IMG/VR virus record: IMGVR_UViG_3300008266_011401
DNA: 64,000 nt
From: an uncultured virus (IMG/VR IMGVR_UViG_3300008266_011401)
Lineage: Duplodnaviria > Heunggongvirae > Uroviricota > Caudoviricetes
Direction: 5' to 3' (one strand)
A program made the position numbers and the translations under genes. Shown piece after piece: positions 14,410-57,175 of the stretch (position 1 is its first letter; every line of letters starts with the position of its first letter). Under the pieces are notes generated by a model. It was not told the DNA's origin. It ran no database searches and saw nothing but the letters and a program-made list of their open reading frames with translations.

Positions 14410-14796
14410 TTATTTTGCCCACTTACCACGCTTGACCAACTGACAGATAACCCCGTAAACCGATAGGTCTTGAAAGGTGTCGTCTATCGCCTCTCCTACA
14501 TTGTCCTTCTTACCTAATACGACCAACTGCTTCAACCGTTGAATCTTATCATTCATACGAAACCACAAACCAGTTAACGACAACTGAACATCATCAGGTG
14601 TTGATAACGAAGTCCCAACAGAAATATTACTTGGTCCATAGTTGGACTGTTTGACACAAAACGTTTCGTATTGCTCCATCATAATATTCCAGTATTCTTT
14701 GGTCATCTCTGGATATTCTCGTTCAATCTGTGCAACTATATCGGGTTTTTTATACACTGTTAAGTTGCCTGTAATACGATGTGACTCAATTTGCAT
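14410..14796 (-). CDS. DUF1599-like nucleotide-modification-associated protein
   Basis: KQSNYG...RMNDKIQRL...E.I.DT..DL.VY. Confidence 0.7.
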   Translation of the reverse strand: MQIESHRITGNLTVYKKPDIVAQIEREYPEMTKEYWNIMMEQYETFCVKQSNYGPSNISVGTSLSTPDDVQLSLTGLWFRMNDKIQRLKQLVVLGKKDNVGEAIDDTFQDLSVYGVICQLVKRGKWAK

Positions 14797-15586
14797 GTAA
14801 CCCTCTTATAGTAGACGAATCCCCGTTTGGGAATTTTGTATTGTTAAGACCATTGTGTGGAGGAACACCCCACTTATAGTAATATTGTTGCATTGCGAAT
14901 TGTTCTCTTTCTCTGAACTTCTGTGCTTCCGAATTCTTCTTTGTTGATACAGAACCAAAATGATACGAATGTAAGAAATGTGTACGTGATCTGGTAAGAC
15001 CAGGTATCAATTCTAACTTTGCGAAGAAATCCCAATCACAAAGATTTGGAGAATTGTAAAAGGTGTCAAATCCACCAACTGCCATATACCATTTCTTGTT
15101 TATCAAGAATGGAAATATATTTCCATCTGGTGTTTTCTTATTGGTAGACAATCTCCGTTCTTCATCAATGAACTTTTCCATATCAAATGTTTCAACCGTT
15201 TGTCCACAATCCATTACCGGAAAGTTAAACATTCCAGGACCAGTAGGTTCTATTTGATTGACTGTTAAGATTTCATTTGGGTCGTACTGCGACTCCAATT
15301 TCTTATCCCAATTTGGTGCGAACACATTATCATCGTTGATGATGAATATCTTTTCGTTGTTTGCATTCCACACACCCATGTTTAATGCGTGTTGCATCCC
15401 TTTATTTTCGGGAAGAGTGATAACGTCAATACCTTTGTGTTTGTTTATTACGTATTCACTTTCTTCTGCATATCCATCCAAGATAACAATTATTTCGTTA
15501 CCATTATGTTGTCCCCGTAACAATGAATGTAAACACAAATCCAAATATTTTGGATTACGATACGAGGGAATAATAACCGAAATCAT
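14786..15586 (-). CDS. Glycosyltransferase family 2
   Basis: ISVIIPSY, ILDG, NDD, GGFD, DWD. Confidence 0.9.
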   Translation of the reverse strand: MISVIIPSYRNPKYLDLCLHSLLRGQHNGNEIIVILDGYAEESEYVINKHKGIDVITLPENKGMQHALNMGVWNANNEKIFIINDDNVFAPNWDKKLESQYDPNEILTVNQIEPTGPGMFNFPVMDCGQTVETFDMEKFIDEERRLSTNKKTPDGNIFPFLINKKWYMAVGGFDTFYNSPNLCDWDFFAKLELIPGLTRSRTHFLHSYHFGSVSTKKNSEAQKFREREQFAMQQYYYKWGVPPHNGLNNTKFPNGDSSTIRGLHAN

Positions 15587-15587
15587 A

Positions 15588-16631
15588 TTAGTTTTTAAGT
15601 TTAGCTGTCTTGGCTTCCTGCACTAGTACATCGGTTTTCCAGAAGGGATAAATACCTTTTTCTACTTCATACTTACTCCACACTTGTCGTGGACGTTCTG
15701 GTTGTACTCGTGCCCATTCCCACATCTTCTTCAATCCTTCATATAAGTCTGTCTTGTGTTCGAATCCAAGAACATCAACCGATTTCTGCCAAGTAGGATA
15801 TGCATATTTCACTTCGTGTCGTGGGGGAAGATGTTTGATTTCACCACCACCCATCACATCAATCAATGTGTCTGCTGCTTCGTTGATACTATATTCCTTG
15901 ATACCACCCAAGTTAATAATTTGCTTGGATGCCTTCGGGTCGGTTCCTGCTCTCCACAAAGGTTCAAGAGAATCATCAATACAGCTAAATGCACGAACCT
16001 GATTACCATCACCGAAGATAGTTAATGGTTGATTGGTTAGCTTCTTATACATCCAGATACCTAACACATTACGATAGCTGTCCCAAATATTCTGGTTCGC
16101 ACCGAATACGTTGTGTGGTCGGATAATACACCAATCTAATCCATGCTGGACACCGGCGGTTTCAATATCCATTTCACACGCTGCCTTCGCAATACCATAC
16201 GAATCAATAGGTGCACGTGCCATATCTTCGTGGAATGGTGGTTCACCAGCACCAAATCCATACACACCCATCGAAGAAGTGAATACCAATCTCTTTACAC
16301 TGTGCTTAATACACTGGTTGATAACTCCCGCAGTTGCGAGAAGATTATTGGTGTAATTATACTGTCTGATGAATGGGGACAACGCTTCCGCTGCGTATGC
16401 TGCAAAGTGATACACGATATCAATTTGATGTGCATCGAAAACATATCCACAGTTCTGCGTGCCCAAATCAATATTATAAAACTTTACCTTTGGATTAATA
16501 TTTTCTTTATACCCACCACTAAAATCGTCAATACCAATAACGTCTACATCGGGTTGGTTTTCGATAATCCAATCAGCCAATCGTGATCCTAGAAGTCCAG
16601 CAACACCAGTGATTAATACAGTTTGTTTCAT
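15588..16631 (-). CDS. NAD-dependent sugar epimerase/dehydratase
   Basis: GVAGLLG, FTSS, YGIAK. Confidence 0.93.
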   Translation of the reverse strand: MKQTVLITGVAGLLGSRLADWIIENQPDVDVIGIDDFSGGYKENINPKVKFYNIDLGTQNCGYVFDAHQIDIVYHFAAYAAEALSPFIRQYNYTNNLLATAGVINQCIKHSVKRLVFTSSMGVYGFGAGEPPFHEDMARAPIDSYGIAKAACEMDIETAGVQHGLDWCIIRPHNVFGANQNIWDSYRNVLGIWMYKKLTNQPLTIFGDGNQVRAFSCIDDSLEPLWRAGTDPKASKQIINLGGIKEYSINEAADTLIDVMGGGEIKHLPPRHEVKYAYPTWQKSVDVLGFEHKTDLYEGLKKMWEWARVQPERPRQVWSKYEVEKGIYPFWKTDVLVQEAKTAKLKN

Positions 16632-16661
16632 TGTAAAGTAATTGTTAAAGGTTCATTAATA

Positions 16662-16690
16662 AGTATAACATCGTGACTGCTCTACGTCAA
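16662..16690 (-). promoter_or_regulatory. Sigma70-type promoter
   Basis: TTGACG-17 nt-TATACT. Confidence 0.75.
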
Positions 16691-16693
16691 GTA

Positions 16694-17440
16694 TCAAATA
16701 TCTTCCCACGAGTCAATTGAAAGACCAACCGTGGGTGCTTCATATCCTTTTAAACAATGTGTTGCTAATGACGGTAGTGGTTGTACTAATGCACGACCTT
16801 TTTCACGAAGTTTAAGAAAGATTGCAAAATCTTTTGTATTAATTAAATCTTCCGTTCCCCACATCCATACATCCATATCGTTCTTTATGGTACCAACAGT
16901 TGTTGCGAACGTATTGGTTGTAGAATTTGTTATCATCCAAAAATGGTCCTTCGTCTTAATAACTTGCGTAGGTTCCGATACATTTTCCATAGGAGTATAC
17001 GGATTCCCACCACGAGAGGGATCCCAAAACTTATCAGGATGTAAGTATCCAGTTGCGTAGTGTGCATAATTCAATGCCTCAATAATTTTATGTTCGGAAC
17101 CAGGAAGATATAAATAATCATCTTCTTGAAACAAAACAATTTCTTCATCATTTGTAATCTTTTGCACTTCGTCTAACAATACTCGCATAGACTTAGCATC
17201 GGACCCAGCCTGTATCTTGACGAGATTAACTCGTTCCGTTGCATCCGATAATTCATTTAACCATTTCCACGTTTCATCGGTGATGGAATCCACGAATATC
17301 GTAATCTCCGCCGTGGGGAAACAATTCAATGTATTCAACAAACACCGTTGTTTAGTGGCGTTTGGTAACTTCACCTGCCACGTTCGTTGTTGTGCATGTT
17401 GTGAATTACTGGACTCACTTATTCTGTAAAATATTTTCAT
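16694..17440 (-). CDS. Putative GT-A glycosyltransferase
   Basis: FQEDDYLY DxD-like motif; PSLATH. Confidence 0.65.
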   Translation of the reverse strand: MKIFYRISESSNSQHAQQRTWQVKLPNATKQRCLLNTLNCFPTAEITIFVDSITDETWKWLNELSDATERVNLVKIQAGSDAKSMRVLLDEVQKITNDEEIVLFQEDDYLYLPGSEHKIIEALNYAHYATGYLHPDKFWDPSRGGNPYTPMENVSEPTQVIKTKDHFWMITNSTTNTFATTVGTIKNDMDVWMWGTEDLINTKDFAIFLKLREKGRALVQPLPSLATHCLKGYEAPTVGLSIDSWEDI

Positions 17441-18329
17441 TATAAAACCGTTCTAATTCTTTTGGAAAGTGTTGTGTTGCAATTTGTCTAAACTCATCTT
17501 TACGATCAATACTGGACACTAAATCATTTAGGTATTTGTTGTTTTGTTGATGATTCTCACAAACTAATATACCGTCCAATACATACTGCTGCACAGGAAG
17601 TTTTTTGGATTCTCGTAACATTTGTGCACAAGTTAATACATAGGTATCTTCCAATCCGTAGTGACCGAATGATTCGGGTATTCCTGTTACTTTCAACAGT
17701 TTATTACTGATAACCGTTCCCCACCCACCAGCAGCTTTAAATGTATTGATTGGTCGAACCGCAACCCCAGTATCTCGTAATCCCAGATCAAATACATTTG
17801 CTGTTAGATTATCATTTAATTCTCTGGACAATAAATCGTCATGTACCAACACATCCCACGTAGTGTCCCACTGTCGTGTTATCTGTGGAGTTACTACATA
17901 GTAATCCACTCCACTATTTTTTATGGCTTTTACTGCATTACCAAGGTATCCAAGAAATCTGTCACCGAAGAATAAATCATTGTCCATCCACAAAGTAAAA
18001 TCGTAATCATCTACATATTTTAATGTATGTCGTCGTTGCGAAACACAGCCAAGTATTTCTGATTTGTATTCTATTCTAAATGTACTATCTGATGATTCCC
18101 AGGTACATAACGAACTTACTATATCAGAGAATTTATTAGCAAAATAAACTTGTGGTAGTTTTGAAGTTGACCAATCAATCATTTCATCACTTAAACATAA
18201 TGTGATATCAAATGTGTATTCCACATCCTCTGGTATCCATTCCGCGTTACGACGAAGATTATATAAAGTTAGATGTAAATTATCAATTTCGTGTGGTAAT
18301 ACAAAAATAGAAATTAAACCTTTGGTCAT
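17415..18329 (-). CDS. Putative GT-A glycosyltransferase
   Basis: WMDND; YGLEDT. Confidence 0.6.
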   Translation of the reverse strand: MTKGLISIFVLPHEIDNLHLTLYNLRRNAEWIPEDVEYTFDITLCLSDEMIDWSTSKLPQVYFANKFSDIVSSLCTWESSDSTFRIEYKSEILGCVSQRRHTLKYVDDYDFTLWMDNDLFFGDRFLGYLGNAVKAIKNSGVDYYVVTPQITRQWDTTWDVLVHDDLLSRELNDNLTANVFDLGLRDTGVAVRPINTFKAAGGWGTVISNKLLKVTGIPESFGHYGLEDTYVLTCAQMLRESKKLPVQQYVLDGILVCENHQQNNKYLNDLVSSIDRKDEFRQIATQHFPKELERFYNENILQNK

Positions 18330-18985
18330 ACCTTTATTCTCTGAACCACACCCACTCCCCAATCAGCTTCTCCACGACCAAACCATTCAACTGAGAAAAT
18401 ATCTGTGTCAATTGCATCTAACAATGCCACTGGACCTGGGTGGTAGTTTGTATCGTGGAATGCCATCACTCCATTTGGAATCATCTTTTCCCAATACTTC
18501 CATTCTTTGATTACTTGATTGACAGAATGCCATCCATCCACGAACATAAAGTCAATTTGTTCATGACCGTACCATTCCATCAATTGATACAAGCTTTCAT
18601 AGTTGGCGGAATCACCTTGAATTGTAAATATATTATTTTCTATACTATTCAAATATGTTTTGGGTTTAAGATCCATTCCAACATACATGCAGTCTGTTGG
18701 TTTGATACTGAGTAATGTGTTCGTGGAGGAAACACCACCACATTCATCTACACCAATTTCAACTATTAATTTAGGTTGGTGGGGTAATTTATTAAATGCA
18801 TATTTTAATGCTTCGTGATTAAGTGACGAAAAATGTACATTGGGTGAAGCATCAAAGTCACCTAACCAATCGGTATCATTGGAAATGCTAGGTTCCAGAG
18901 AGGGAAGATATTTTAGTCCATAAATATCTGTGGGTAACTTGGTTACCTTTGATAAAATATCATTCGTTCTGTCAAGTAAATTCAT
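18326..18985 (-). CDS. Class I SAM methyltransferase (Methyltransf_24-like)
   Basis: VEIGV..G.S, GDS, FVDGWHS, FHDT. Confidence 0.85.
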   Translation of the reverse strand: MNLLDRTNDILSKVTKLPTDIYGLKYLPSLEPSISNDTDWLGDFDASPNVHFSSLNHEALKYAFNKLPHQPKLIVEIGVDECGGVSSTNTLLSIKPTDCMYVGMDLKPKTYLNSIENNIFTIQGDSANYESLYQLMEWYGHEQIDFMFVDGWHSVNQVIKEWKYWEKMIPNGVMAFHDTNYHPGPVALLDAIDTDIFSVEWFGRGEADWGVGVVQRIKV

Positions 18986-18994
18986 AGTATTCTC

Positions 18995-20224
18995 TTAGAA
19001 AATTCTGTATTGTAAATCAGCGTTGACTGCTTTGTATCCCCACTTTTTAACAGCTGCGTCATATTCTGCTCCGTGGTTACCATCAATTGCTTGACGCATT
19101 GCCAATCCACCGGCGAGTGTACCCATTGGATGTCCATGCATTGCACCACCAACATTTGCCATCCAGTTATGACTATCAAGTAATCCGTTAATGTGCTGCA
19201 CCAATCCAGGATGCATTCCACAACTGAGTGCGGGGATAACATTGTAGTTCCACAACACCTTCAAGGCGTCTTGTAGTTCTGTGTCATCCTGATTCATATA
19301 CCCACCAATCATACCTGCGTGGATAGAGTCTGCACCAGACCACCCTGCAATCTTACAGATAACGGGCCAGTAGATATGATTCGGAGCACGACGGTCAGTG
19401 AAGAATTTATCCCCAGACTTCTGAAAGTGAATCCACAGATTAGGATTCTGTTTACGGATTGCACGATATGCACCCAACCCACTCCACACATTAATATGAA
19501 CACCCAATCCACCTTCATCCGAAACGAATTGTGCTCGTTGTAGTGCGTACGGACTGTCACCATTAATACAGAATGTGTACATTACATTCGGGGCGTTATT
19601 CGCCAACCAGTTGGTAATCAGTGGAACTCTCTTTGTCAACGGACAATGTGCCGGACTACCAAGGAGTTCATCTTCTTTAATAAAGTTTACACCACCATAT
19701 ACCATTTCCTTCACGGCTTCTAACAATACTTCTGGACTCATTCCAACCTTGGGTTTGATAATACCACCGAAGAATGGTTTGCCCTCGACACCATTAAACT
19801 TACGGAATCCATCAATACCATATGCTGGTTTCAATGTAAACTGTTGTTCAATATGTGCAGGTAGTGTTACGTCCAATACATGACATTGCTCAATTTCCAG
19901 AATGTCTACTTGACCACCGGCGATGTGGCAGAGGATTTGTGAGATACCATCTTCTTCTAAGTCTAGATTTTCTAGTGGAAATGCGATATCAACTTCACCG
20001 GAAAACTTCGACTTTAATTCATTTTCATCAGCGAGAACAAAACAACTGTGGTCACGAAACATCTGGTCAGTTTCCCATACACTACGATTGTTTGGATTAC
20101 CGATGCTTTGACCAATTGCCAAATTCCACGCGGCATCTCGTAGTGAAGTTTTCCCTGCAAGGAAGTACTTAACTATAAAATATTTGGATAAATCAATATC
20201 TCTTGTAAAAATATTTACGCTCAT
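18995..20224 (-). CDS. RuBisCO-like protein (form IV)
   Basis: GGIIKPKVG, GGVNFIKEDE, GADSIHAG, PALSCG, GGAMHGHP.G. Confidence 0.93.
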   Translation of the reverse strand: MSVNIFTRDIDLSKYFIVKYFLAGKTSLRDAAWNLAIGQSIGNPNNRSVWETDQMFRDHSCFVLADENELKSKFSGEVDIAFPLENLDLEEDGISQILCHIAGGQVDILEIEQCHVLDVTLPAHIEQQFTLKPAYGIDGFRKFNGVEGKPFFGGIIKPKVGMSPEVLLEAVKEMVYGGVNFIKEDELLGSPAHCPLTKRVPLITNWLANNAPNVMYTFCINGDSPYALQRAQFVSDEGGLGVHINVWSGLGAYRAIRKQNPNLWIHFQKSGDKFFTDRRAPNHIYWPVICKIAGWSGADSIHAGMIGGYMNQDDTELQDALKVLWNYNVIPALSCGMHPGLVQHINGLLDSHNWMANVGGAMHGHPMGTLAGGLAMRQAIDGNHGAEYDAAVKKWGYKAVNADLQYRIF

Positions 20225-20553
20225 TGTTTGTCTGTGACCTCGTATTTGTCGCCTATGACGGACGGTAATTTAACAACAATTAATTCACAATCTTCTAAAA
20301 ATTCTGGGTCTGCTATTTCATACGGAAATATAGTAAATATATCTCCTGTTGTCAATAGCTGTCCTTGTATTCGCATCTTGCCACGAATTAAATAGTTAAT
20401 TTCTATAGCCCTCTTGTGATAATGCTTACCCCAGATTTCACCTTTTTTATGACGAAGATATCCGACTTCAAAATCACTGGTCATCAATACGGATGGTGTA
20501 AAGTTTCCAATAAACCATCCACGAGTCATATCTTCAATTCTTTTTATTTCCAT
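20221..20553 (-). CDS. Cupin-fold protein
   Basis: GWFIGNF.P, HYH...E, G.M. Confidence 0.7.
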   Translation of the reverse strand: MEIKRIEDMTRGWFIGNFTPSVLMTSDFEVGYLRHKKGEIWGKHYHKRAIEINYLIRGKMRIQGQLLTTGDIFTIFPYEIADPEFLEDCELIVVKLPSVIGDKYEVTDKQ

Positions 20554-21265
20554 ATAATGCTCTGTATCGTTCAATATCTTCCAAGGTTCCTACTGCATAG
20601 TGTTCGGACGGAGTTATATCGTATACTCGTTTAGTTCCGTCCAGATAGTTGTATGAGGGACCAATATAATATTCACCATTAACAGTGTCTTTCACTTGTT
20701 TCATAGTATTCACCGAAGATGCGAAATCTTTGCCATACTTCCACCAGTGAATACCATTCAGTGAATAGTTACTAATCACTTCCTTTTCTTTTACCATTGT
20801 GAATTTTGGATATTTGTGTTCTACATTAGCCACCAACGCGTAACTATTTTTAGGCGTGTTAGTTTCGTAGGTCACCACCGCACCAATAGCATCGGTGGTT
20901 TTGGTAAACTCAATAAACTTATCGGCGTCCCAATGCATGATTTGGTCACAGTTGGTAACTAATAAATCAGTTTCTCCAAAAAATAATTGTGGAGCATGTA
21001 ACGCCGAAATGGCTGGACCATCGGTAAGATAATCAATTTCTACTACAACAGCCTGACCAACGGTTTTACGAATCGCATCACGAAGAGCCACATTCCAATC
21101 TTGATTGTTGTATCTACGAACAATGAAACAATAATGGCCATCTATGTTCAACGATTCCAATGCCATTTCAATCATAACTTTACCTGGTAATACTTCTACC
21201 AGTGGTTTGGGGACCGTGCTTTTTACACGAGTCCCCTCACCAGCCATTGGAATAATAATATTCAT
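20534..21265 (-). CDS. Sugar-phosphate nucleotidyltransferase
   Basis: IIIPMAGEGTR...PKPL, NCDQ, EK, NGEYY. Confidence 0.9.
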   Translation of the reverse strand: MNIIIPMAGEGTRVKSTVPKPLVEVLPGKVMIEMALESLNIDGHYCFIVRRYNNQDWNVALRDAIRKTVGQAVVVEIDYLTDGPAISALHAPQLFFGETDLLVTNCDQIMHWDADKFIEFTKTTDAIGAVVTYETNTPKNSYALVANVEHKYPKFTMVKEKEVISNYSLNGIHWWKYGKDFASSVNTMKQVKDTVNGEYYIGPSYNYLDGTKRVYDITPSEHYAVGTLEDIERYRALYGNKKN

Positions 21266-21269
21266 TTAA

Positions 21270-22163
21270 TCAAGCAACTGTTGAAGTAGTAAACTGTATG
21301 TCTGCGTGCTCACCCAATGATTCTGCCGACTTGGTACGCATGAATTCTTCATGTAGTGATTGACCCAACTGGTCCATTTGATTGAAGAACTGCTTACTCA
21401 AATCAAGATTCTTGTCAGTTACTAATGGAGTATAATCTGCTTGTGGGAAGTCAACCACCGAGTATGTATAATTCCAGTATGAAGCAAATTCCTCCCAACG
21501 ATTTTCTGCATCAATTAAATCCCAAACACGACTACCGATTGTTGGTACGGTGTGATAGTAAATAGATCTCTTTAATCCATCAAGTGTTCGCATACTACCA
21601 GCGATAATGTTTTGGTGACGTTGGATTTGTTGGTTTGCCAAATATTCCAAGTGTGCATCTGCATCAATTCCAACTTCTTCCATACGTCCTGGAATGATAC
21701 TAGCGAAGAACACACTTTGATAACTCAAAGACTTAATGATGGTATTTGCATCAGAAACACCTGTTACATTTAGATATAACTTACGAAGTTCTGGTGCGTC
21801 GGCGATTCGAAGTACATAACTGAAATGTGGAATCTTCAATGCCATAGCTGCACCATTACCGTTGAACTGGTCAACATATTGTGCCCATCGAATAATATCT
21901 TCTTCTTCCATAACTGAATTAGGGACTTGTACATATACTAATCCTTCTGGACCTTCACCACGAAGTTCTCCAACAAGTGAGGTCATCTGTGGAACAAGTG
22001 TTTCAAATTTATCCAATGTATCGCAGTTGACCTTTGCCAATGCGTTTGGATTGGTAGTAATACCAATTACGGAACTACCGTCAATATACTTACCCAACTT
22101 GTCCCAAATCTTACGGATATAGTCGGTGTCTGCTGTGTCAAAAAAGAATGTTGGTTGTGACAT
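21270..22163 (-). CDS. Transaldolase/fructose-6-phosphate aldolase-like protein
   Basis: FFDTAD, GITTNP, LKIP (Schiff-base Lys), NVT, GR, AGSMR. Confidence 0.85.
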   Translation of the reverse strand: MSQPTFFFDTADTDYIRKIWDKLGKYIDGSSVIGITTNPNALAKVNCDTLDKFETLVPQMTSLVGELRGEGPEGLVYVQVPNSVMEEEDIIRWAQYVDQFNGNGAAMALKIPHFSYVLRIADAPELRKLYLNVTGVSDANTIIKSLSYQSVFFASIIPGRMEEVGIDADAHLEYLANQQIQRHQNIIAGSMRTLDGLKRSIYYHTVPTIGSRVWDLIDAENRWEEFASYWNYTYSVVDFPQADYTPLVTDKNLDLSKQFFNQMDQLGQSLHEEFMRTKSAESLGEHADIQFTTSTVA

Positions 22164-22543
22164 TATGGATTCTCCACGGTTCTTGGTCCTTTGTTTATTC
22201 TATCTTTTATTGCTAAGATTGAGGTTTCCCAATCTGTATGTCTGTGTACCGCATCATCTATTATTAAATCGGCGTGAGGTTTACTCCACCAAATTTCATC
22301 ATATGGAATATCCCATTTTTCTAACCAATCAAACAATACTTTACCTTGTAACTTTAATACCCTTCCTTGATTCCCACCACCAGTTTTCATATGTCGTGCC
22401 GTATGAAGAATAATGGTGTGCCCTTCTTCTTTTAACCATCGTAACGTTTCTAATGCTTCTGGAAACGGCTTGACATCTGCGTAGGTCATATCACCAGTTT
22501 TATTTTCACAGATAGTATTATCTATATCAAAACAAAATATCAT
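22163..22543 (-). CDS. HAD-family phosphatase (capsule-biosynthesis type)
   Basis: FDIDNTI, HTAR, KP, IDD. Confidence 0.88.
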   Translation of the reverse strand: MIFCFDIDNTICENKTGDMTYADVKPFPEALETLRWLKEEGHTIILHTARHMKTGGGNQGRVLKLQGKVLFDWLEKWDIPYDEIWWSKPHADLIIDDAVHRHTDWETSILAIKDRINKGPRTVENP

Positions 22544-23310
22544 AATGTACCCTCAAAGGCTTTTACATCTGCTGGTGTACCAAGAGGTACAACATCAGTA
22601 ACGGTATGTACATATACTGGAATCCCTATACTCACATTATACGAGGCCACCATACTCATATAATACTCTGCGTTTCCATTAAACTCAACTGGTTTGTTAA
22701 ATTCCATAATAAACTTTGCATAGTTTGTAAAGAATTGTGTTTGACCAAAGTAGAATATACCAATCATCGTAGGATAGTGAACCCACGAATCATTCTTCTC
22801 ACGAATACCCACAGCCTTTCCATCTTCAATTATAACGTTCGACCATTTATTGGGTAGTGATTTGTCTGGATTATCAAAGCATGCTACTGCGACTGCATTA
22901 CTCTTAAATTTAATACCACGAATAAAATCATCAACACCATTATGATTATATTTGTTATCGGAATCAAGAACCAATAAGTCATCAGTTTTGTGCCACATAC
23001 GAGATGCTGCTTGTCTTGCGGTGTCTAAACTTCCCGAAGTAATTTCTTTAAACGGAATGATTTCTATGTTACGACCGTAAATGGAATATAAAAATTTATC
23101 CAATCCAGCATCCAAATGTTCTTGCAAAACTGCAAAATATAAATGAATGTTACTCGACTGTCCCTTTCCATCGTGACGAATATATGGACATGATTCCGTT
23201 GTCCATTGTAAGATTGTCTTACCATTTATTTGAATTAATGGTTTGGGGTCTTTGTATCCTTCGTTTACAAAACGTTGACCCCTACCAGCCATTAACACTA
23301 AGACGTTCAT
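22540..23310 (-). CDS. Sugar-phosphate nucleotidyltransferase
   Basis: LMAGRGQRF...PKPLI, DSD, EK, EYY, LGTP. Confidence 0.88.
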   Translation of the reverse strand: MNVLVLMAGRGQRFVNEGYKDPKPLIQINGKTILQWTTESCPYIRHDGKGQSSNIHLYFAVLQEHLDAGLDKFLYSIYGRNIEIIPFKEITSGSLDTARQAASRMWHKTDDLLVLDSDNKYNHNGVDDFIRGIKFKSNAVAVACFDNPDKSLPNKWSNVIIEDGKAVGIREKNDSWVHYPTMIGIFYFGQTQFFTNYAKFIMEFNKPVEFNGNAEYYMSMVASYNVSIGIPVYVHTVTDVVPLGTPADVKAFEGTL

Positions 23311-24293
23311 AATTCCAATGCCTCGTTTAATAATCTTATACCTGTGAGGTACATTGCTCGTTGTCTTTCCAGACTATCATAATGACGAGCACACATCCCA
23401 ATAAAGATGCAGCCTTGGATAATTTTTATTTCCTTCTTATTAAACATTGGAAAGAAAATATATTCAAACTCATTCAATGCCCAATCAAGTTCACCGTCAT
23501 TCTTAATGTCCAATTGATACGCATTGCCATTTGCTGTAACCTTAAACTTATCAGTAATAAATGCTTCATACGTTCCATCCAATGAATGATATAGTTTAGC
23601 TATATCGTATCGAATATCACCGTAATTTCCAAGTTTACCAAATGAACCACGAGGATCTATGAAACGAATAATATTTTTATCTTCACCATATAAAATATTA
23701 CTAAAACAACAATCACCGTGTATAAGTGATGGAGTAAAAGTTAACATATTTTGTTCGATGTAATTCTTAATCTGTGGCCAGACTACTTCGAACATGGAGT
23801 ATTGTTTATTGTTAATGTATACTGAATGTGCACGAACTTGGTCAATAAACAACGAATCAAACTTATCGTGCCACCCAGAATAAAAATTACGGTACTCACG
23901 TTCTGTTTTTGTGATGTACATATCGTACGCTGCATTACGAATTTCTTCGTCAGTCCACTTAACTCGTGGACTGATGTTAGACCACGACACAAGAATGTTT
24001 CGTAAATTAAGGAAAAATTCAGACCACGACGGCATAATTTTGTCACCAAACAAATAATTACCAACGTTTGGATAACTATACAATTCCAAATCCATCCAAA
24101 AGTCTGCTATTAACGGTTCTACGTGATCGAGTAATCTTGGAAAAAATACTGCTTGTGATGGATGATACTTTTGTAATTTTACATAATATAATATCTCATC
24201 ACGGAGTCGTTCGGTGGAACTTAATTTCCGAACAACTCCTCGCGTTTCATCTACTTCAAATCTATTGTATGCTCGTGTGACTAATTTTTCCAT
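23307..24293 (-). CDS. APH/choline-kinase-fold sugar kinase
   Basis: HGDCCFSNIL, FIDPRG, YDIAKL. Confidence 0.85.
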   Translation of the reverse strand: MEKLVTRAYNRFEVDETRGVVRKLSSTERLRDEILYYVKLQKYHPSQAVFFPRLLDHVEPLIADFWMDLELYSYPNVGNYLFGDKIMPSWSEFFLNLRNILVSWSNISPRVKWTDEEIRNAAYDMYITKTEREYRNFYSGWHDKFDSLFIDQVRAHSVYINNKQYSMFEVVWPQIKNYIEQNMLTFTPSLIHGDCCFSNILYGEDKNIIRFIDPRGSFGKLGNYGDIRYDIAKLYHSLDGTYEAFITDKFKVTANGNAYQLDIKNDGELDWALNEFEYIFFPMFNKKEIKIIQGCIFIGMCARHYDSLERQRAMYLTGIRLLNEALEL

Positions 24294-24296
24294 AAA

Positions 24297-24932
24297 TCAT
24301 CCCACTTGGAATGGTGGTTCCCATCCTGTTTCGTTACAATATTCAATGACTTCATCAATAGAAATCGTATTCAATGCCCATCGTTCTGCGTAGGGAATGA
24401 GGTCTGGGACTCGTGCCATACTACCATCATCATTCATAATCTCACAGATGATTGCAACTGGTTTCGTTCCAGCCATCATAGCAAGTTGAACAGATGCTTC
24501 GGTATGACCCTGCCGTTCCTTCAACAAACCAGGACGGGGACGGAGTGGAAACAAGTGACCTGGGTATGCAAGTTGTTCTGGTTTGGTATTTTCATCTAGT
24601 ACCAATCCAATCGTGACCATACGATCTTCTACACTTACACCAGTAGTGACACCATCACGTGCGTCAATACTGACGGTGAATGGAGTCGAAAACTTATCGT
24701 TATTGTTAGATGGACTCATAGGAATTTCTAAACGATCTAACATAAACTTTGGTGTAGGAATACACATGATACCTCGTGCTTCCTTTGCGATAAAAGCCAG
24801 TGTTTCTGGTGTTGCTTTTTCCGCTGCAATCATCAAGTCACCTTCATTTTCTCTATCGTAACTATCTACGACGATGATTGGTTTTCCGTTGCGGATATCT
24901 TCTAATACTGTTTTAATTTTTTCTGATAACAT
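24297..24932 (-). CDS. ribB: 3,4-dihydroxy-2-butanone 4-phosphate synthase
   Basis: DRENEGD, FTVSID, TGVS..DR, PGHLFPL, R.GHTEAS, ICEI. Confidence 0.96.
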   Translation of the reverse strand: MLSEKIKTVLEDIRNGKPIIVVDSYDRENEGDLMIAAEKATPETLAFIAKEARGIMCIPTPKFMLDRLEIPMSPSNNNDKFSTPFTVSIDARDGVTTGVSVEDRMVTIGLVLDENTKPEQLAYPGHLFPLRPRPGLLKERQGHTEASVQLAMMAGTKPVAIICEIMNDDGSMARVPDLIPYAERWALNTISIDEVIEYCNETGWEPPFQVG

Positions 24933-24944
24933 TTACCTTTCCCC

Positions 24945-25814
24945 TTATACGATTTTACAAATGTCGAAGTCTAATGAATTTATGTCTAACCACGGATACC
25001 AATCAATCTCTTCTTCGGTTGGCCCGTTTACGAAGTTTTCAAACGTGTTTGGTGACTGTCCTCTCCACTTTCTATCATTCCAAGTCAGCTTCTCAAACTT
25101 TTGTGTTTTTGCTCCGCACTGCGGAACTACATGCTTACTTGCTCGTGTCCAGTATTTATCCAACCCTACATCATTCCACCTAAGATATGGGAATCCATCT
25201 CCATATTCAGCGTGTCCAGTTTTACAAATCGGACTAACTATTTGACCCTCTACGTTTATTTGTTCGGGCCAATTATGCCATGCGTGATAATCAACCAACG
25301 ATGCTCTGTTGTGTCCTAAATCTCTACGTAATGCTCGTGTACTGAAATCCAGTTCGTGGTTTCCGTTTGTAGCGTATCGTTCATCCCACCATCCGAAAAA
25401 TCGTAATCCTTCCAATGTCATTAAGGTAACTTGGTCACCTTGTGGGGCCATATATAAATCATAATCGGTTTGCTTGATAATGTCAACCCACCCATCCTTA
25501 ATAATCATATTGTCGTGAGCAGTTATACAATATTTTTTACCGGAAAGAAAAGTGTGAACATATGCTTGATTGTAGTTTTCAACCATAGGACCGATTGCGT
25601 AATCGTGTCTCATCACATTATTCCAAATCTTAACACGAGATTTAATATCATCTGCGAAGTCATCAATGGTGACTGATGAATGATTGGTGATGATGTTGAC
25701 TCGTTCAAAGTCAAAGGTATTTAACCACTCACGTGCAAATCCATCCATCAACTCCTTTCTTCGCCAGTTGGAAATCCAAAGTTCAACGTTATCTGGTGTA
25801 AAATCTGTTCTCAT
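24945..25814 (-). CDS. Putative glycosyltransferase
   Basis: HDN, GWWDERY, ELD; cluster context. Confidence 0.5.
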   Translation of the reverse strand: MRTDFTPDNVELWISNWRRKELMDGFAREWLNTFDFERVNIITNHSSVTIDDFADDIKSRVKIWNNVMRHDYAIGPMVENYNQAYVHTFLSGKKYCITAHDNMIIKDGWVDIIKQTDYDLYMAPQGDQVTLMTLEGLRFFGWWDERYATNGNHELDFSTRALRRDLGHNRASLVDYHAWHNWPEQINVEGQIVSPICKTGHAEYGDGFPYLRWNDVGLDKYWTRASKHVVPQCGAKTQKFEKLTWNDRKWRGQSPNTFENFVNGPTEEEIDWYPWLDINSLDFDICKIV

Positions 25815-25815
25815 C

Positions 25816-26598
25816 CTATCCTCGCGTCAATTCTAAATGATTTATTACTGTATTGTATGGTAGTCCCATATGTTTTACGTAAAAAAATAATAATGTATGT
25901 GGATTCAAAAACCTATCTACACCTGGTATCTCTACGTTATTCCCTGCCGAACGTGTTGGTTTTTCTAGTTCTAGTACAGATTCCATCTCTTCTATATGAT
26001 TATACAAGTTATTGTATACTTTCATATTATCAAAATTACCCACCGCATAGTAATCGTGTGGTTCTGAGTAGTGTTCTTTTGTTGAGTTATACCACGGCCA
26101 ATTAATACATTCCAAATCTATATCGTCTAAATTAAAACTGTCTTTTAATTTAATATCTGGTCTACATTTTATTACCAAGTCATAATCTGTACTGTGTGAC
26201 TCTAATAACTCAAAACACTTTAATGCTTTGTACCACATAGAGTATAGATGCGTTACTCGTCGAGTTGTCCAATCTATACTGTTTTGTGATACACCTGCCT
26301 CGTTTCGTAGTTTTCTAACTCTCTTACTTTTATCTAAAAATTCTTGTAAAGGTTCTTCGTAAGGTTGTATTACTACATCGGTAAGATTATATTTTTGTTT
26401 TAACTCTGTTTCTGTATGTATTAATTTGTCTCGGTTCTCTACAACATTTACATCATCTGATTTTTTACGATTTCCCATCACATCCCACGTATGTAAAAAT
26501 ACATCACAGTCGTGTTTTGAGAATAATAATTTATCCCAAGAATCGTAATTATAATCAAAATTTCTATAATGTCCAGATAAACACACTCCTATCTTCAT
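25816..26598 (-). CDS. Putative glycosyltransferase-like protein
   Basis: VCLSGHYR, DVFLHTW, YDLVIKCRPD; paralog of the adjacent gene. Confidence 0.6.
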   Translation of the reverse strand: MKIGVCLSGHYRNFDYNYDSWDKLLFSKHDCDVFLHTWDVMGNRKKSDDVNVVENRDKLIHTETELKQKYNLTDVVIQPYEEPLQEFLDKSKRVRKLRNEAGVSQNSIDWTTRRVTHLYSMWYKALKCFELLESHSTDYDLVIKCRPDIKLKDSFNLDDIDLECINWPWYNSTKEHYSEPHDYYAVGNFDNMKVYNNLYNHIEEMESVLELEKPTRSAGNNVEIPGVDRFLNPHTLLFFYVKHMGLPYNTVINHLELTRG

Positions 26599-27365
26599 GC
26601 GTACTGCTTTTCCAATTCTTCTATATTGTTGATATTTACTACACGATGCATGATTTCGTAGTTGAACGGAGCACAGTATGCTTCAATTCCACCCATTACT
26701 CGTACACGATATCCGATATAGTTTTCACCATATGGAATCTGAATCTGTGAATGAATAAAGGAAAAGTGTGGATATGTGTCACAGAATACATCCATATTCT
26801 TTGATGTGGAGAATGCGAATATATCCGTCATCGTATATCCACCTTGATGAAAGTTTGGGTCATTACGAATCCCCTGAAACTTATCCGCGGTGACGATATG
26901 TGTTCGTGATTGTTCCAAATAATCCATTACATTGATAGGATTCTCGTACCACAAATCATATCTTGCACGAATCACCAAATCATATTCAAATCCATTTAAC
27001 AGTTCGTATCGCTTCTTCAACATATTCGCTGTATAGATTGAATAGAAGATACTAGCCATACGTTCTTGATTTGCTTCTGGTGGTGATGTGAACCTACGTG
27101 CGAATGGAAATTCCTTCTGTGGTTCAAAGATATAATCTTTTGGATTAAGACTGAGTAACATCTCTTCCGTTTGTGGATGAACCAATCCTACTCTACCTTG
27201 TTGATGTGCTTGCGCACTATCGTATGGTTGACCAATAGTATTTGGGTCAAACCATGCGTGTAAGAAGATATCCATATCTTCTATACCAACGAGGTTTGCC
27301 TTTAACATTTTTAATGACAAAGGCAATCCACGAGGTTGGCCAGATAAACAAAGTGCTATTTTCAT
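26595..27365 (-). CDS. Putative glycosyltransferase-like protein
   Basis: LCLSGQPR, DIFLHAW, YDLVIRARYD. Confidence 0.6.
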   Translation of the reverse strand: MKIALCLSGQPRGLPLSLKMLKANLVGIEDMDIFLHAWFDPNTIGQPYDSAQAHQQGRVGLVHPQTEEMLLSLNPKDYIFEPQKEFPFARRFTSPPEANQERMASIFYSIYTANMLKKRYELLNGFEYDLVIRARYDLWYENPINVMDYLEQSRTHIVTADKFQGIRNDPNFHQGGYTMTDIFAFSTSKNMDVFCDTYPHFSFIHSQIQIPYGENYIGYRVRVMGGIEAYCAPFNYEIMHRVVNINNIEELEKQYA

Positions 27366-27366
27366 A

Positions 27367-27966
27367 TTAATTAAAGAACTGTATTATAATCATCACATCA
27401 TCTGCGAGTCCGTTCGGACGCATGTGTTGATCTAGTATGGTTACTGCATAGTTACGGTCGGGTATCATATATACACCACGAGTTAAATAATCAAATAGAT
27501 TTGGTAAGTACATATCCTCACAGATATAATATCCACCTGGTTTTACAAGTGCGTGGTATTTTAATATTGCTTTGACTTGGTTATCAATATCATGTGCACC
27601 ATCTTCAATAAACACATCTTGCTTCGGTAAGTTCTGTACTAGATAGTTACCATTATCTTCATTGTATGCGTCACCAAATATCATATTAACATTAGGTAAC
27701 GTTGAAAGATAATCCTTTCGTACAGGTTCTACAATATCAAGTCCGGTAATTATACCCTTTGTAAAATATTGCGACCACATCAACAGACTTGCACCAGATG
27801 CAATACCCAATTCCATCAATTGAACAGGTTCGTCTTTCCATGCAGAGAATAATGCATCGTACGTATCAATATAAAAATGCTTATGTAACGGATGCCTATC
27901 TCCTTTGTCAGACAAACCAATATCAGGAATATCTTCCATTTGGTAGTAAAATTCTTTTAGTCTCAT
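27367..27966 (-). CDS. SAM-dependent (sugar O-)methyltransferase
   Basis: ELGIASGASL, GLDI, IEDGAH, PGGYYICED. Confidence 0.85.
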   Translation of the reverse strand: MRLKEFYYQMEDIPDIGLSDKGDRHPLHKHFYIDTYDALFSAWKDEPVQLMELGIASGASLLMWSQYFTKGIITGLDIVEPVRKDYLSTLPNVNMIFGDAYNEDNGNYLVQNLPKQDVFIEDGAHDIDNQVKAILKYHALVKPGGYYICEDMYLPNLFDYLTRGVYMIPDRNYAVTILDQHMRPNGLADDVMIIIQFFN

Positions 27967-29815: not shown

Positions 29816-29975
29816 GTAACCCTTCCTATTGTATTAGTTTTATTCTTTTGCTACTGCTACGTGCTTACCAGTACAGATGTAGTACCAAACAGTCCACCAT
29901 TCTTTTTCTGGTATATATCTTTTTAAGTTTATTCTATCTTGTTTTGATTCCGTTAATGGGTGTTCTGTTATAACA

Positions 29976-30359
29976 TTATTCCCCATACATATTCTCCGTT
30001 ACGTTTTCTTCTGTCTTTAACACAGTTTTCTTAATGAATACTTCACGTAACGTAGATATCTTCGTTAATAAATAGGTTCGATAGGGTCTGTCACCAACGA
30101 AATTTGAGTTTTTGAAACGGTCGTAAATTACCTGAGTATCAGTTTCATCACCAATCAATTTAAATATTTGACCAAGTTTTTCTGGTGTTAGAGAACCCAG
30201 TGACAAAGCGTGCATTTTACCTTCCCAATTGGGATTGAGTACGAGTGCATATTTCTGCTCATTATCGTAGGTAAACTGCACCACTTTGCCAGTAGTCAAA
30301 TCTTTTCGAGAAACGAAAGTACGAACACCTAATGTACCTTTATACCCTTCTATTGCCAT
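29976..30359 (-). CDS. Hypothetical protein
   Basis: 127-aa coupled ORF. Confidence 0.55.
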   Translation of the reverse strand: MAIEGYKGTLGVRTFVSRKDLTTGKVVQFTYDNEQKYALVLNPNWEGKMHALSLGSLTPEKLGQIFKLIGDETDTQVIYDRFKNSNFVGDRPYRTYLLTKISTLREVFIKKTVLKTEENVTENMYGE

Positions 30360-31666: not shown

Positions 31667-31667
31667 A

Positions 31668-35077: not shown

Positions 35078-35079
35078 AA

Positions 35080-57100: not shown

Positions 57101-57175
57101 GTGTATCTCCAAAAATACCATATACTTATACTTATCATTAAGCCTCTCAAAAACACCGATTTTTACAAAAAATCA

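What the first reader, a model, noticed from the sequence alone, without database searches (positions are those of the whole stretch)
18995..20224. RLP active site keeps the enolisation residues but lacks the carboxylation residues
By eye against form I numbering: K175/K177 (IKPK), K201/D203/E204 (KEDE), H327 and the G403-G404 region are kept. E60 appears to be Gly (AIGQSIG), N123 is lost (IAGGQ), H294/R295 appear as Q/K (IHFQKSG) and loop-6 K334 as Tyr (GGYM). This points to a non-CO2-fixing enzyme with an unusual residue set, possibly a separate RLP clade.
Basis: partly seen in the sequence, partly recalled or inferred. Interest (0 to 1): 0.7.

Follow-up and report, generated by a model that had tools for sequence, protein, structure and literature searches.

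The report
Phage RuBisCO-like enzyme in sugar-activation module
A phage gene resembling the CO2-fixing enzyme RuBisCO has lost the residues needed to fix CO2 and almost always sits beside sugar-activating genes, so it probably helps make an unusual sugar for surface glycans.

Summary
Window 18995-20224 (minus strand) encodes a 409-aa RuBisCO large-subunit homologue. It keeps K175, K177, K201, D203, E204, H327, S379, G381 and G403/G404. It has E60G, T65N, W66P, N123G, H294Q, R295K, H298D, K334Y and G380C.

This residue set is invariant in 190 unique relatives down to 50% identity. It is identical in 43 of 51 sequences aligned with cellular homologues down to about 32%.

The gene lies in an uncultured T4-like myovirus. 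It falls in a well-supported clade apart from forms I-III and from MtnW-like and OiaX-like RLPs. The clade matches the phage 'form IV-like' RLPs of Jaffe et al. 2019, which had no assigned function.

What appears new is the context. The RLP sits within 3 kb of a sugar-1-phosphate-type nucleotidyltransferase in 77 of 80 viral and 46 of 50 cellular loci. A metal cupin (sometimes fused to the NTase), a GDPD-like protein and a GT-A-fold DUF7796 protein are usually nearby.

Best reading: a non-carboxylating enolase/isomerase that feeds a nucleotide-activated sugar pathway. The substrate is unknown.

The parts
18995..20224 (-). RuBisCO-like protein (RLP), 409 aa, P0001. Signature: G38 N43 P44 G104 K157 K159 K183 D185 E186 Q268 K269 D272 H302 Y309 S334 C335 G336 G359 G360.
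20221..20553 (-). Small metal-binding cupin (HxH...E motif). The listed ORF starts at TTG 20574; the likely start is ATG 20553. Its TGA overlaps the RLP ATG (ATGA).
   Evidence: Within 3 kb of the RLP in 76 of 80 viral loci. Fused to the NTase in 10-11 loci.
20534..21265 (-). Nucleotidyltransferase 1 (243 aa), sugar-1-phosphate NTase class. Its stop overlaps the cupin start by 20 nt.
   Evidence: PDB 4evw 1.2e-35; mannose-1-P guanylyltransferases about 1e-13 to 1e-12; RmlA about 1e-11. Within 3 kb of the RLP in 77 of 80 viral loci and 46 of 50 cellular loci.
18326..18985 (-). SAM methyltransferase (Methyltransf_24 / CmcI-like). Starts 9 nt after the RLP stop codon.
   Evidence: BLAST homologue in 23 of 80 loci.
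21270..22163 (-). Transaldolase-family-like protein (297 aa); weak assignment.
   Evidence: Pfam TAL_FSA E 0.0024, below cut-off but covering 1-238 of 285 profile positions. All 30 Atlas feature hits are viral transaldolase-family clusters, scores 0.91-0.93. No support from PDB phmmer.
22163..22543 (-). Small HAD-IIIA phosphatase (EcbF/BcbF capsule-biosynthesis phosphatase-like).
   Evidence: (TIGR01689 6.1e-17, below cut-off). A homologue lies next to the Pelagibacter module.
22540..23310 (-). Nucleotidyltransferase 2 (256 aa), a paralogue of NTase 1.
   Evidence: (NTase profile 1.5e-68).
23307..24293 (-). APH/choline-kinase-fold small-molecule kinase-like protein (weak).
   Evidence: PF01636 1.3e-4, just below cut-off.
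24297..24932 (-). RibB-type 3,4-dihydroxy-2-butanone-4-phosphate synthase.
   Evidence: PF00926 1.2e-73; TIGR00506 214.6 bits against cut-off 177.45.
25816..27365 (-). Two tandem DUF7796 paralogues (25816-26598 and 26595-27365), GT-A-fold glycosyltransferase-like.
   Evidence: pLDDT 80.7; Z about 12, about 190 residues aligned, rmsd 3.4-3.6 A to GT6 and other GT-A enzymes. Within 3 kb of the RLP in 39 of 80 viral loci.
14786..33068 (-). Surrounding glycan island: GT2 (14786-15586), SDR epimerase/dehydratases (15588-16631, 28796-29815), GT11 (27963-28799), two GT4 (30359-31666, 31668-33068), plus unassigned ORFs.

Best explanation
The gene encodes a catalytically active, non-carboxylating member of the RuBisCO superfamily.

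Shown: it keeps the carbamylatable lysine (K183), the two acidic Mg2+ ligands (D185, E186), K157/K159, H302 and the glycine loops that hold the C1 phosphate of RuBP. It has invariant replacements at the residues that stabilise CO2 addition (K334Y, E60G, N123G), at H294 (Q) and in the distal phosphate site (R295K, H298D).

Inferred: it binds a phosphorylated 2-keto sugar through Mg2+, forms an enediolate, and re-protonates it to give an epimer or a carbonyl-shifted isomer, as other RLPs do, rather than adding CO2.

Shown: the gene is one unit of a conserved module. A sugar-1-phosphate-type nucleotidyltransferase is nearly always present. A small metal cupin (sometimes fused to the NTase), a GDPD-like phosphodiesterase-fold protein and a GT-A-fold DUF7796 protein are usually present.

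Inferred: the module makes a nucleotide-activated rare sugar or sugar phosphate, which is transferred onto a glycan. In this phage the module lies inside a roughly 18-kb island of glycosyltransferases, epimerases and methyltransferases. The substrate and the order of steps are not known.
For: Residue mapping.

Invariance: the signature is invariant in 190 unique sequences at 50-100% identity. It is identical in 43 of 51 rows of the cellular alignment, including Legionella at about 32% identity. This argues for a selected, active site.

Residue roles: KCX201/K175/H294 for proton transfers and K334/K177 on the carboxylate, from passages of bioRxiv 10.64898/2025.12.22.696010.

Not a known subfamily: every NCBIfam score is below its cut-off and the clade is separate with SH-aLRT 99.

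Module in viruses: NTase within 3 kb in 77 of 80 viral loci, cupin 76 of 80, GDPD-like 60 of 80, DUF7796 39 of 80.

Module in cells: NTase 46 of 50, GDPD-like 27, cupin 16, DUF7796 10.

NTase-cupin fusion ORFs: 10 of 11 long ORFs by BLAST, 11 loci by HMM.

Overlapping or near-abutting genes in the window.

NTase class. DUF7796 is GT-A-like.

Glycan enzymes beside the module in cultured or complete genomes: LicD in Legionella maceachernii, GT2 in Nonomuraea rosea and Turneriella, and GT9 plus a cytidylyltransferase in a complete Pelagibacter chromosome.
Against: There is no biochemical evidence.

H294->Q removes a residue implicated in proton relay at O3, so enolisation chemistry may differ from RuBisCO's.

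The NTase is of the sugar-1-phosphate class. How an RLP product, expected to be a ketose phosphate, becomes an anomeric phosphate is unexplained. The minimal phage cassette has no recognisable kinase or mutase.

The role of the GDPD-like protein is unexplained, and this window lacks one.

The transaldolase-like and kinase assignments in the window are weak.

Gene neighbourhood shows functional linkage, not the reaction. Some MAG or SAG 'cellular' contigs could be viral.
Confidence: 0.55

Rival explanations
1. The RLP acts after the nucleotidyltransferase, directly on a nucleotide-linked keto sugar (NDP-ketose or NDP-keto-sugar). It enolises the sugar while the retained glycine loops hold one phosphate of the diphosphate bridge.
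For: All four partner-subunit residues that cap the C1-phosphate/CO2 side in RuBisCO are invariantly small or non-aromatic: E60G, T65N, W66P, N123G. That could open room for a larger C1 substituent. The RLP-NTase pairing is very tight: 77 of 80 viral and 46 of 50 cellular loci.
Against: No known member of the RuBisCO superfamily uses a nucleotide-linked substrate (recalled, not searched specifically). The idea rests on residue sizes alone.
Confidence: 0.15
2. It is a methionine-salvage / MTA-recycling RLP: either a DK-MTP-1-P enolase like MtnW, or a 5-methylthioribulose-1-P 1,3-isomerase working with a cupin methylsulfurylase as in Rhodospirillum and Rhodopseudomonas. It would be carried by the phage as a sulfur auxiliary gene.
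For: An adjacent RLP-plus-cupin pair is the hallmark of the MTA-isoprenoid shunt (RPA2169/RPA2170; passages of PMC5893883). This window also has an APH-fold kinase-like gene and a HAD phosphatase, which recall MtnK and MtnX.
Against: MtnW models score 94.5 bits against cut-off 409 and 71.5 against 513.6. The query is outside the MtnW-like clade. K177 is kept here but replaced in the MtnW anchor. The kinase and the HAD phosphatase have BLAST homologues in only 5 and 7 of 80 viral loci, whereas the NTase has one in 76. No MtnA or MtnB homologue was seen in the island. A nucleotidyltransferase has no place in those pathways.
Confidence: 0.07
3. It is a decarboxylase or C-C lyase on a phosphorylated keto-acid sugar, like the apiose-pathway RLP OiaX.
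For: OiaX is the third-best NCBIfam hit. 3nwr, an RLP of unstated function, is the best PDB sequence hit. 2-hydroxyacid-dehydrogenase-type genes lie near the module in Pelagibacter and Nonomuraea.
Against: The score is 115.5 bits against cut-off 700. The clade is separate from the OiaX-like clade. The residue set differs: OiaX keeps K334 and H294 and lacks K177. The context is biosynthetic (NTase, glycosyltransferases), not catabolic.
Confidence: 0.1
4. It is a true carboxylase (form III-like) working in nucleotide salvage.
For: Form III is the best-scoring NCBIfam model, and form III enzymes are the top structural matches. K175, K177, K201, D203, E204 and H327 are kept.
Against: K334Y, E60G, N123G and H294Q are invariant. 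The form III score is 153 bits against cut-off 497. No AMP phosphorylase or ribose-1,5-bisphosphate isomerase was named by Pfam, NCBIfam or PHROGs in the window.
Confidence: 0.02
5. It is a non-catalytic scaffold or pseudoenzyme.
For: Several canonical catalytic residues are lost.
Against: The metal ligands, the carbamylatable lysine and the replacement residues are all invariant over very wide divergence. This is the pattern of a working active site.
Confidence: 0.02

Closest known systems
Phage 'form IV-like' RuBisCO-like proteins of Jaffe et al. 2019 (Mol Biol Evol; PMC6389311)
   Same: Carried by uncultured phages, some of them myoviruses. Highly divergent from other RLPs. Groups with Beckwithbacteria sequences: my scan finds a Beckwithbacteria MAG homologue at 48% identity with the same signature. 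Key residues differ from known form IV, and function is unassigned.
   Different: In the passages I read, that paper reports no gene-neighbourhood or functional hypothesis beyond possible lateral transfer. I did not compare sequences with their set directly, and their supplements were not opened.
DeepYkr RLP (5-methylthioribulose-1-P 1,3-isomerase) with adjacent cupin methylsulfurylase, Rhodospirillum rubrum / Rhodopseudomonas palustris
   Same: An RLP and a small cupin encoded side by side and acting in sequence on a ketose phosphate. The RLP does enediolate-based isomerisation, not carboxylation.
   Different: Here the pair is joined to a nucleotidyltransferase, and the cupin is fused to the NTase in some loci. 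The context is glycan biosynthesis, with no MTA genes. I had no DeepYkr reference sequence, so membership was not tested.
MtnW / YkrW 2,3-diketo-5-methylthiopentyl-1-phosphate enolase
   Same: RuBisCO fold, carbamate/Mg2+ site, enolisation without carboxylation.
   Different: Below the NCBIfam cut-offs, in a different clade, with different residues at K177, R295, H298, H327 and K334.
OiaX 3-oxo-isoapionate-4-phosphate decarboxylase (apiose catabolism RLP)
   Same: RLP acting on a sugar-derived keto phosphate. Comparable remote similarity of about 29-31% identity.
   Different: 115.5 bits against cut-off 700. Separate clade. OiaX keeps K334 and H294 but not K177. It is catabolic and is found next to a four-carbon acid-sugar kinase.
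Form III RuBisCO (archaeal)
   Same: Best profile and structural match. Same length class, no small subunit. Keeps K175, K177, K201, D203, E204, H327.
   Different: Lacks E60, N123, H294, K334 and the R295/H298 pair.
Bifunctional type II phosphomannose isomerase / GDP-mannose pyrophosphorylase (N-terminal NTase plus C-terminal cupin; architecture recalled, not tested)
   Same: Same domain order as the NTase-cupin fusions that accompany the RLP. The NTase profile hits mannose-1-P guanylyltransferases. The cupin profile hits a 'mannose-6-phosphate isomerase' cupin, 7zvm, at E 1e-4.
   Different: This concerns the RLP's partners, not the RLP. The similarity is remote, and the cupin's activity is unknown.

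Membership tests
RuBisCO large-subunit superfamily (PF00016) | Catalytic-domain profile match above Pfam's gathering score. | tested here: met
   115.8 bits against cut-off 30.1.
RuBisCO large-subunit superfamily (PF00016) | N-terminal alpha/beta domain plus C-terminal TIM barrel fold. | tested here: met
   AF2 model pLDDT 94.7. TM 0.78-0.84 to form III RuBisCOs and RLPs over about 410-440 columns.
Bona fide RuBisCO (forms I, II, III) | Full set of catalytic residues, including E60, N123, H294 and K334. | tested here: not met
   G38, G104, Q268 and Y309 at those positions.
Bona fide RuBisCO (forms I, II, III) | Score above the NCBIfam cut-offs (TIGR03326, NF003252, NF010002). | tested here: not met
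   153.4 against 497.45; 135.3 against 438; 96.7 against 489.
MtnW / YkrW enolase | Score above the NCBIfam cut-offs (NF007095, TIGR03332). | tested here: not met
   94.5 against 409; 71.5 against 513.6.
MtnW / YkrW enolase | Clusters with MtnW anchors in a tree. | tested here: not met
   The MtnW anchor P0252 lies in a different clade.
OiaX decarboxylase | Score above the NCBIfam cut-off (NF042437). | tested here: not met
   115.5 against 700. The annotated OiaX (L083) falls in another clade.
DeepYkr RLP (MTRu-1-P 1,3-isomerase) | Sequence clustering with characterised DeepYkr enzymes. | not tested
   No named DeepYkr reference sequence could be obtained with these tools.
DeepYkr RLP (MTRu-1-P 1,3-isomerase) | Adjacent cupin gene. 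| tested here: met
   The cupin is immediately upstream with an ATGA overlap. This is a resemblance only.
Phage 'form IV-like' RLP clade (Jaffe et al. 2019) | Encoded on a phage genome, some of them myoviruses. | tested here: met
   T4-type DNA polymerase, clamp, clamp loader and virion protein in the window. The genome record is a virus record.
Phage 'form IV-like' RLP clade (Jaffe et al. 2019) | Groups with Beckwithbacteria sequences and apart from other RLPs. | tested here: met
   Beckwithbacteria MAG locus L096: 48% identity and the same 19-residue signature. Separate clade with SH-aLRT 99 (the root is midpoint only).
Phage 'form IV-like' RLP clade (Jaffe et al. 2019) | Direct identity or clustering with the sequences of that paper. 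| not tested
   Their sequence set and supplements were not examined.

The most novel reading that the evidence does not exclude
This clade is a new functional class of the RuBisCO superfamily with an anabolic role. It would be the committed enolase/isomerase of a previously unrecognised nucleotide-sugar pathway (RLP + NTase + cupin + GDPD-like + GT-A DUF7796). Phages, putative giant viruses, SAR11, CPR/DPANN organisms and some Legionella, Nonomuraea and Azospirillum would use it to decorate surface glycans. The RLP may act on a nucleotide-linked keto sugar. All RLP functions I know of (recalled) are in salvage or catabolism.
Probability: 0.45. Interest if true: 0.8.

Novelty: new variant of a known kind. 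Interest (0 to 1): 0.6.

Why it matters
RuBisCO's relatives are the main evidence for how carboxylation evolved from simpler enolase chemistry. This clade has a strictly conserved hybrid active site: RuBisCO-like K175/K177/K201/D203/E204/H327, but Q294 and Y334. It is very abundant in environmental data (2625 database proteins at E <= 1e-5; 121 IMG/VR loci).

The gene-neighbourhood evidence turns an orphan clade into a testable hypothesis: a rare-sugar pathway with defined partner enzymes. The finding that cultured bacteria and a complete Pelagibacter genome carry the same module makes genetics and biochemistry feasible.

If the reading is right, a widespread but unknown glycan building block shapes phage-host surface interactions in the ocean and in freshwater.

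Tried and rejected
- tblastn of the RLP against 50,697 GenBank phage records found no match at E <= 1e-3. No sequenced cultured phage in that collection seems to carry it.
- PHROGs has no family for the RLP.
- The search of earlier findings returned nothing for this genome.
- The IQ-TREE C20 mixture tree did not finish in two 300-s calls. I used LG+G4 with SH-aLRT only. There are no bootstraps, the root is midpoint only, and no AU test was run.
- u231, conserved upstream in 16 viral loci (12 unique sequences aligned), looks like a core phage gene with an RNase-H-like 'GIDxS' N-terminus (my reading of the consensus). I dropped it from the module.
- The window has no GDPD-like ORF at E <= 1e-2.
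- PDB phmmer gave no support for the transaldolase-like ORF. Only a sub-threshold Pfam hit and Atlas feature hits support it.
- The A3 (DUF7796) profile found nothing in PDB by sequence. Its fold was recognised only from the model.
- Whether L084 (Saprospirales MAG contig, RLP 73% identical) is cellular or a binned phage could not be decided. Only module genes are shared with the window.
- Literature searches for a function of viral RLPs, or for an RLP-glycan link, found nothing beyond Jaffe et al. 2019. The library lacks most subscription journals, and the Tabita MMBR review was not held.
Full report
OBSERVATION. Window 18995-20224 holds one long ORF on the minus strand. It translates to a 409-aa protein, P0001.

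Three independent alignments give the same correspondence to form I numbering. These are HMMER pairwise alignments to the form III enzyme 2cwx and the RLP 3nwr, a 95-row MAFFT alignment that includes an annotated Sinorhizobium meliloti form I large subunit, and the family profiles.

Kept: K175 (K157), K177 (K159), K201 (K183), D203 (D185), E204 (E186), H327 (H302), S379 (S334), G381 (G336), G403/G404 (G359/G360).

Changed: E60G, T65N, W66P, N123G, H294Q, R295K, H298D, K334Y, G380C.

An AlphaFold2 model built on a 76-sequence alignment is confident (pLDDT 94.7, pTM 0.92). It superposes on form III RuBisCOs and on several RLP types at TM 0.78-0.84, and is not specifically close to any one of them.

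One nuance: passages of a 2025 preprint on spinach RuBisCO (10.64898/2025.12.22.696010) state that KCX201, K175 and H294 are thought to handle the proton transfers at O2/O3, and that the carboxylate of the transition-state analogue is held by K334 and K177. H294Q therefore touches the enolisation and hydration machinery, not only carboxylation.

WHAT GENOME. All long ORFs of the window run on the minus strand. PHROGs finds a T4-type DNA polymerase (2e-184), clamp loader, sliding clamp, DNA ligase, RNR, a virion structural protein and CobS-like ATPases.

The genome tool says the window is part of a 78-kb virus record, with completeness estimated at 41%. The DNA polymerase is only 43% identical to its best GenBank phage relative (Microcystis phage Mel-JY01) and about 33% identical to T4-like cyanophages. 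This is an uncultured, distant T4-like myovirus.

The RLP lies in a roughly 18-kb run of sugar genes: GT2, GT4 x2, GT11, two SDR epimerase/dehydratases, methyltransferases, two nucleotidyltransferases, a HAD phosphatase, an APH-fold kinase-like protein and a RibB-type DHBP synthase.

FAMILY PLACEMENT. P0001 passes Pfam's RuBisCO_large cut-off. It is far below every NCBIfam cut-off: form III 153 against 497, NF003252 135 against 438, OiaX 115 against 700, form II 97 against 489, MtnW 94 against 409.

A scan of 1.84 billion representatives gave 870 hits at E <= 1e-3. There is a gradient of relatives from 54% to about 35% identity, then a step down to about 30% for other RLPs and RuBisCOs.

I labelled 95 full-length hits with NCBIfam. 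None of the 18 clade members scanned reached any cut-off. Anchors above cut-off were found for form III (P0174, P0214), form II (P0241), MtnW (P0252) and the NF003252 subfamily.

The ML tree had 95 rows and used LG+G4 with SH-aLRT. It places the query in a 25-row clade (support 99) opposite the other 70 rows, which hold form I, II and III, MtnW-like and OiaX-like sequences. The C20 mixture model did not finish. The root is midpoint only.

CONSERVATION OF THE ODD RESIDUES. I examined 190 unique sequences (149 at >=65% identity, 41 at 50-65%) drawn from the 80 viral loci and 120 database proteins. G38, N43, P44, G104, K157, K159, K183, D185, E186, Q268, K269, S334, C335, G336, G359 and G360 are invariant, apart from one truncated row that is gapped from H302 to the C-terminus. 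H302 and Y309 are invariant apart from that same row. D272 varies in 5 of the 41 distant sequences.

In an alignment of the query with the RLPs of 50 cellular loci, the 19-position signature is identical in 43 of 51 rows, including Legionella species at about 32% identity. Two more rows are truncated. The rest differ only at positions 295, 298 or 404. The deepest branch, P0135, differs at four positions. This is the pattern of an active, isofunctional enzyme family, not of decay.

CONSERVED MODULE IN VIRUSES. IMG/VR holds 121 confirmed relatives, of which 80 loci were kept at 51-100% identity. Some are labelled as giant-virus MAGs; I did not verify that label.

Using profile HMMs, within 3 kb of the RLP I find a nucleotidyltransferase in 77 of 80 loci, a small cupin in 76, a ~150-aa GDPD-like protein in 60 and a DUF7796 protein in 39. 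Thirty-three loci have all four (the profiles were built from these same loci).

The order NTase-cupin-RLP, on one strand and adjacent, occurs in 62 loci. In several T4-like contigs the whole insert between core genes is NTase-cupin-RLP-GDPD-like-DUF7796. In 10 of 11 long NTase ORFs, the NTase and cupin are one fused polypeptide; the HMM count is 11 loci.

In the window, the NTase stop overlaps the cupin start by 20 nt. The cupin stop and the RLP start share ATGA. A methyltransferase starts 9 nt after the RLP stop codon. The window has two NTases and two DUF7796 paralogues but no GDPD-like ORF.

THE SAME MODULE IN CELLS. A scan of one genome per prokaryotic species found 50 loci. They include:
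- a complete Candidatus Pelagibacter chromosome (51% identity) and many SAR11 SAGs;
- a Verrucomicrobiae chromosome and a Turneriella chromosome-scale contig;
- Beckwithbacteria, Saccharibacteria, Woesearchaeota and Nanoarchaeia MAGs;
- the cultured strains Nonomuraea rosea, Azospirillum oleiclasticum and three Legionella species.

An NTase lies within 3 kb in 46 of 50 loci (three of the four exceptions are contigs under 4 kb). A GDPD-like protein does so in 27, a cupin in 16 and DUF7796 in 10.

Neighbours are glycan enzymes. In Legionella maceachernii there is a LicD-family transferase (6e-44) divergently adjacent. In Nonomuraea and Turneriella there is a GT2. In Pelagibacter there are a GT9, a HAD-NTase fusion, a 2-hydroxyacid dehydrogenase and a CMP-sugar-type cytidylyltransferase. 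MAG and SAG attributions may include viral contigs. The complete chromosomes and the isolates do not have that problem.

WHAT THE PARTNERS ARE.
- NTase: the profile matches PDB 4evw, an uncharacterised 'nucleoside-diphosphate-sugar pyrophosphorylase', over its full length (1.2e-35). Next come mannose-1-P guanylyltransferases and RmlA. LicC and IspD match only weakly and only at the N-terminus. It is therefore of the sugar-1-phosphate class.
- Cupin: it has an invariant HxH...E metal motif. Its profile hits quercetinase domains, Cupin_2 proteins and a small 'mannose-6-phosphate isomerase'.
- u153: it carries the invariant H-R, E-x-D and H(-D) motifs (N25 is also invariant). Its profile hits glycerophosphodiester phosphodiesterases (7e0v 2.4e-5, 3i10 1.1e-4), mostly over the N-terminal third. 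Pfam finds nothing for it.
- DUF7796: recognised by Pfam in 17 of 38 members. The model (pLDDT 80.7) aligns to GT-A glycosyltransferases at Z about 12, with about 190 residues at 3.4-3.6 A.

MECHANISM. What is shown:
- an intact Mg2+/carbamate site;
- intact P1-phosphate loops;
- loss of the carboxylate-stabilising residues;
- an altered distal phosphate site;
- strict conservation of the signature;
- obligate genomic association with an NTase and, usually, a cupin and a GT-A-like protein.

What is inferred: the enzyme enolises a phosphorylated 2-keto sugar and re-protonates it (epimerisation or carbonyl migration). The module then delivers a nucleotide-activated product to a glycosyl- or phospho-sugar transferase.

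What is unexplained:
- the identity of the substrate;
- how a ketose phosphate becomes a substrate for a sugar-1-phosphate-type NTase without a recognisable kinase or mutase in the minimal cassette;
- the job of the GDPD-like protein;
- whether the RLP acts before or after nucleotide activation.

The four partner-subunit residues are all small or non-aromatic (G, N, P, G). This is compatible with a bulkier C1 substituent, but that is speculation.

In this window, extra genes suggest that unusual ketose phosphates are made locally, but those assignments are partly weak. They are RibB (strong), a transaldolase-family-like protein (weak), a kinase-like protein (weak), a HAD phosphatase and a second NTase.

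RIVALS. A methionine-salvage role is suggested by the RLP-cupin pairing known from the MTA-isoprenoid shunt. It is contradicted by the scores, the tree, the residues, the lack of mtn genes and the NTase linkage. A carboxylase role is contradicted by the invariant losses. An OiaX-like decarboxylase role is not excluded chemically, but it lacks support from residues, tree or context.

NOVELTY. Jaffe et al. 2019 already reported a large divergent phage RLP clade grouping with Beckwithbacteria, 'leaving possible functionality unclear'. The GOS paper of 2007 had noted new RuBisCO-homologue branches in ocean data. The clade itself is therefore not new.

I found no paper linking any RLP to nucleotidyltransferases or glycan synthesis. 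That library omits most subscription journals, and I did not open supplements. The conserved module, the NTase-cupin fusion, the strict 19-residue signature across viruses, bacteria and archaea, and the presence in cultured strains appear to be new observations. They make the function testable.

Noticed in passing
window 59637-62777 (-): A 1046-aa ORF in a phage with a CarboxypepD_reg domain plus an outer-membrane beta-barrel (OMP_b-brl_4 6.7e-35; TonB_dep_Rec 5e-5). This is a SusC/RagA-like receptor architecture, unusual for a virus and a hint of a Bacteroidota host. PHROGs had no family for it.
   Followed up: no
window 40762-41589 (-) and 48451-49041 (-); also 14410-14796, 11429-12094, 39128-39610: Two Mom-family proteins (1.5e-46 and 4.8e-37), a DUF1599 'nucleotide modification associated' ORF (sub-threshold), ThyX and a dCMP deaminase. 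The phage may hypermodify its DNA.
   Followed up: no
window 43420-44856 (-): A 478-aa protein with a Druantia DruA domain (2.9e-23), sitting between the clamp-loader and sliding-clamp genes.
   Followed up: no
window 24297-24932 (-) and 21270-22163 (-): A bona fide RibB-type DHBP synthase (1.2e-73) and a transaldolase-family-like protein sit inside the phage glycan island, away from any riboflavin genes. BLAST homologues occur in only 5 of 80 related loci.
   Followed up: partly
window 34400-36523 (-): A second small sugar module: a metallophosphoesterase, a cupin of the mannose-6-P isomerase C-terminal type (2.1e-10) and a cytidylyltransferase-like protein that PHROGs names heptose kinase/adenylyltransferase.
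   Followed up: no
L070:8391-9461, L075:8425-9483, L080:13961-15031 and 7 more loci: NTase and cupin are fused into one ~350-370-aa protein, mostly on contigs that IMG/VR labels as giant-virus MAGs.
   Followed up: yes
L020:11217-11666 (family u153, alignment A1): A ~150-aa protein family with the catalytic motifs of glycerophosphodiester phosphodiesterases but only about 60% of their length. It accompanies the RLP in 60 of 80 viral and 27 of 50 cellular loci. Pfam has no model for it.
   Followed up: partly
L130:6952-7788 (Legionella maceachernii): A LicD-family phospho-alcohol transferase (6.3e-44) is the divergent neighbour of the RLP-NTase pair. This suggests that in some hosts the product is transferred as a phosphodiester-linked group.
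   Followed up: no
window 55433-56095 (-) and 57176-57613 (-): A weak galactose-3-O-sulfotransferase-like ORF (PHROG 3.2e-6) and an APS-kinase-like P-loop ORF. Possibly glycan sulfation.
   Followed up: no
window 56438-57121 (-) and 10636-11307 (-): A GIY-YIG/NUMOD3 homing-endonuclease-like ORF and a weak HNH-like ORF among the core genes.
   Followed up: no
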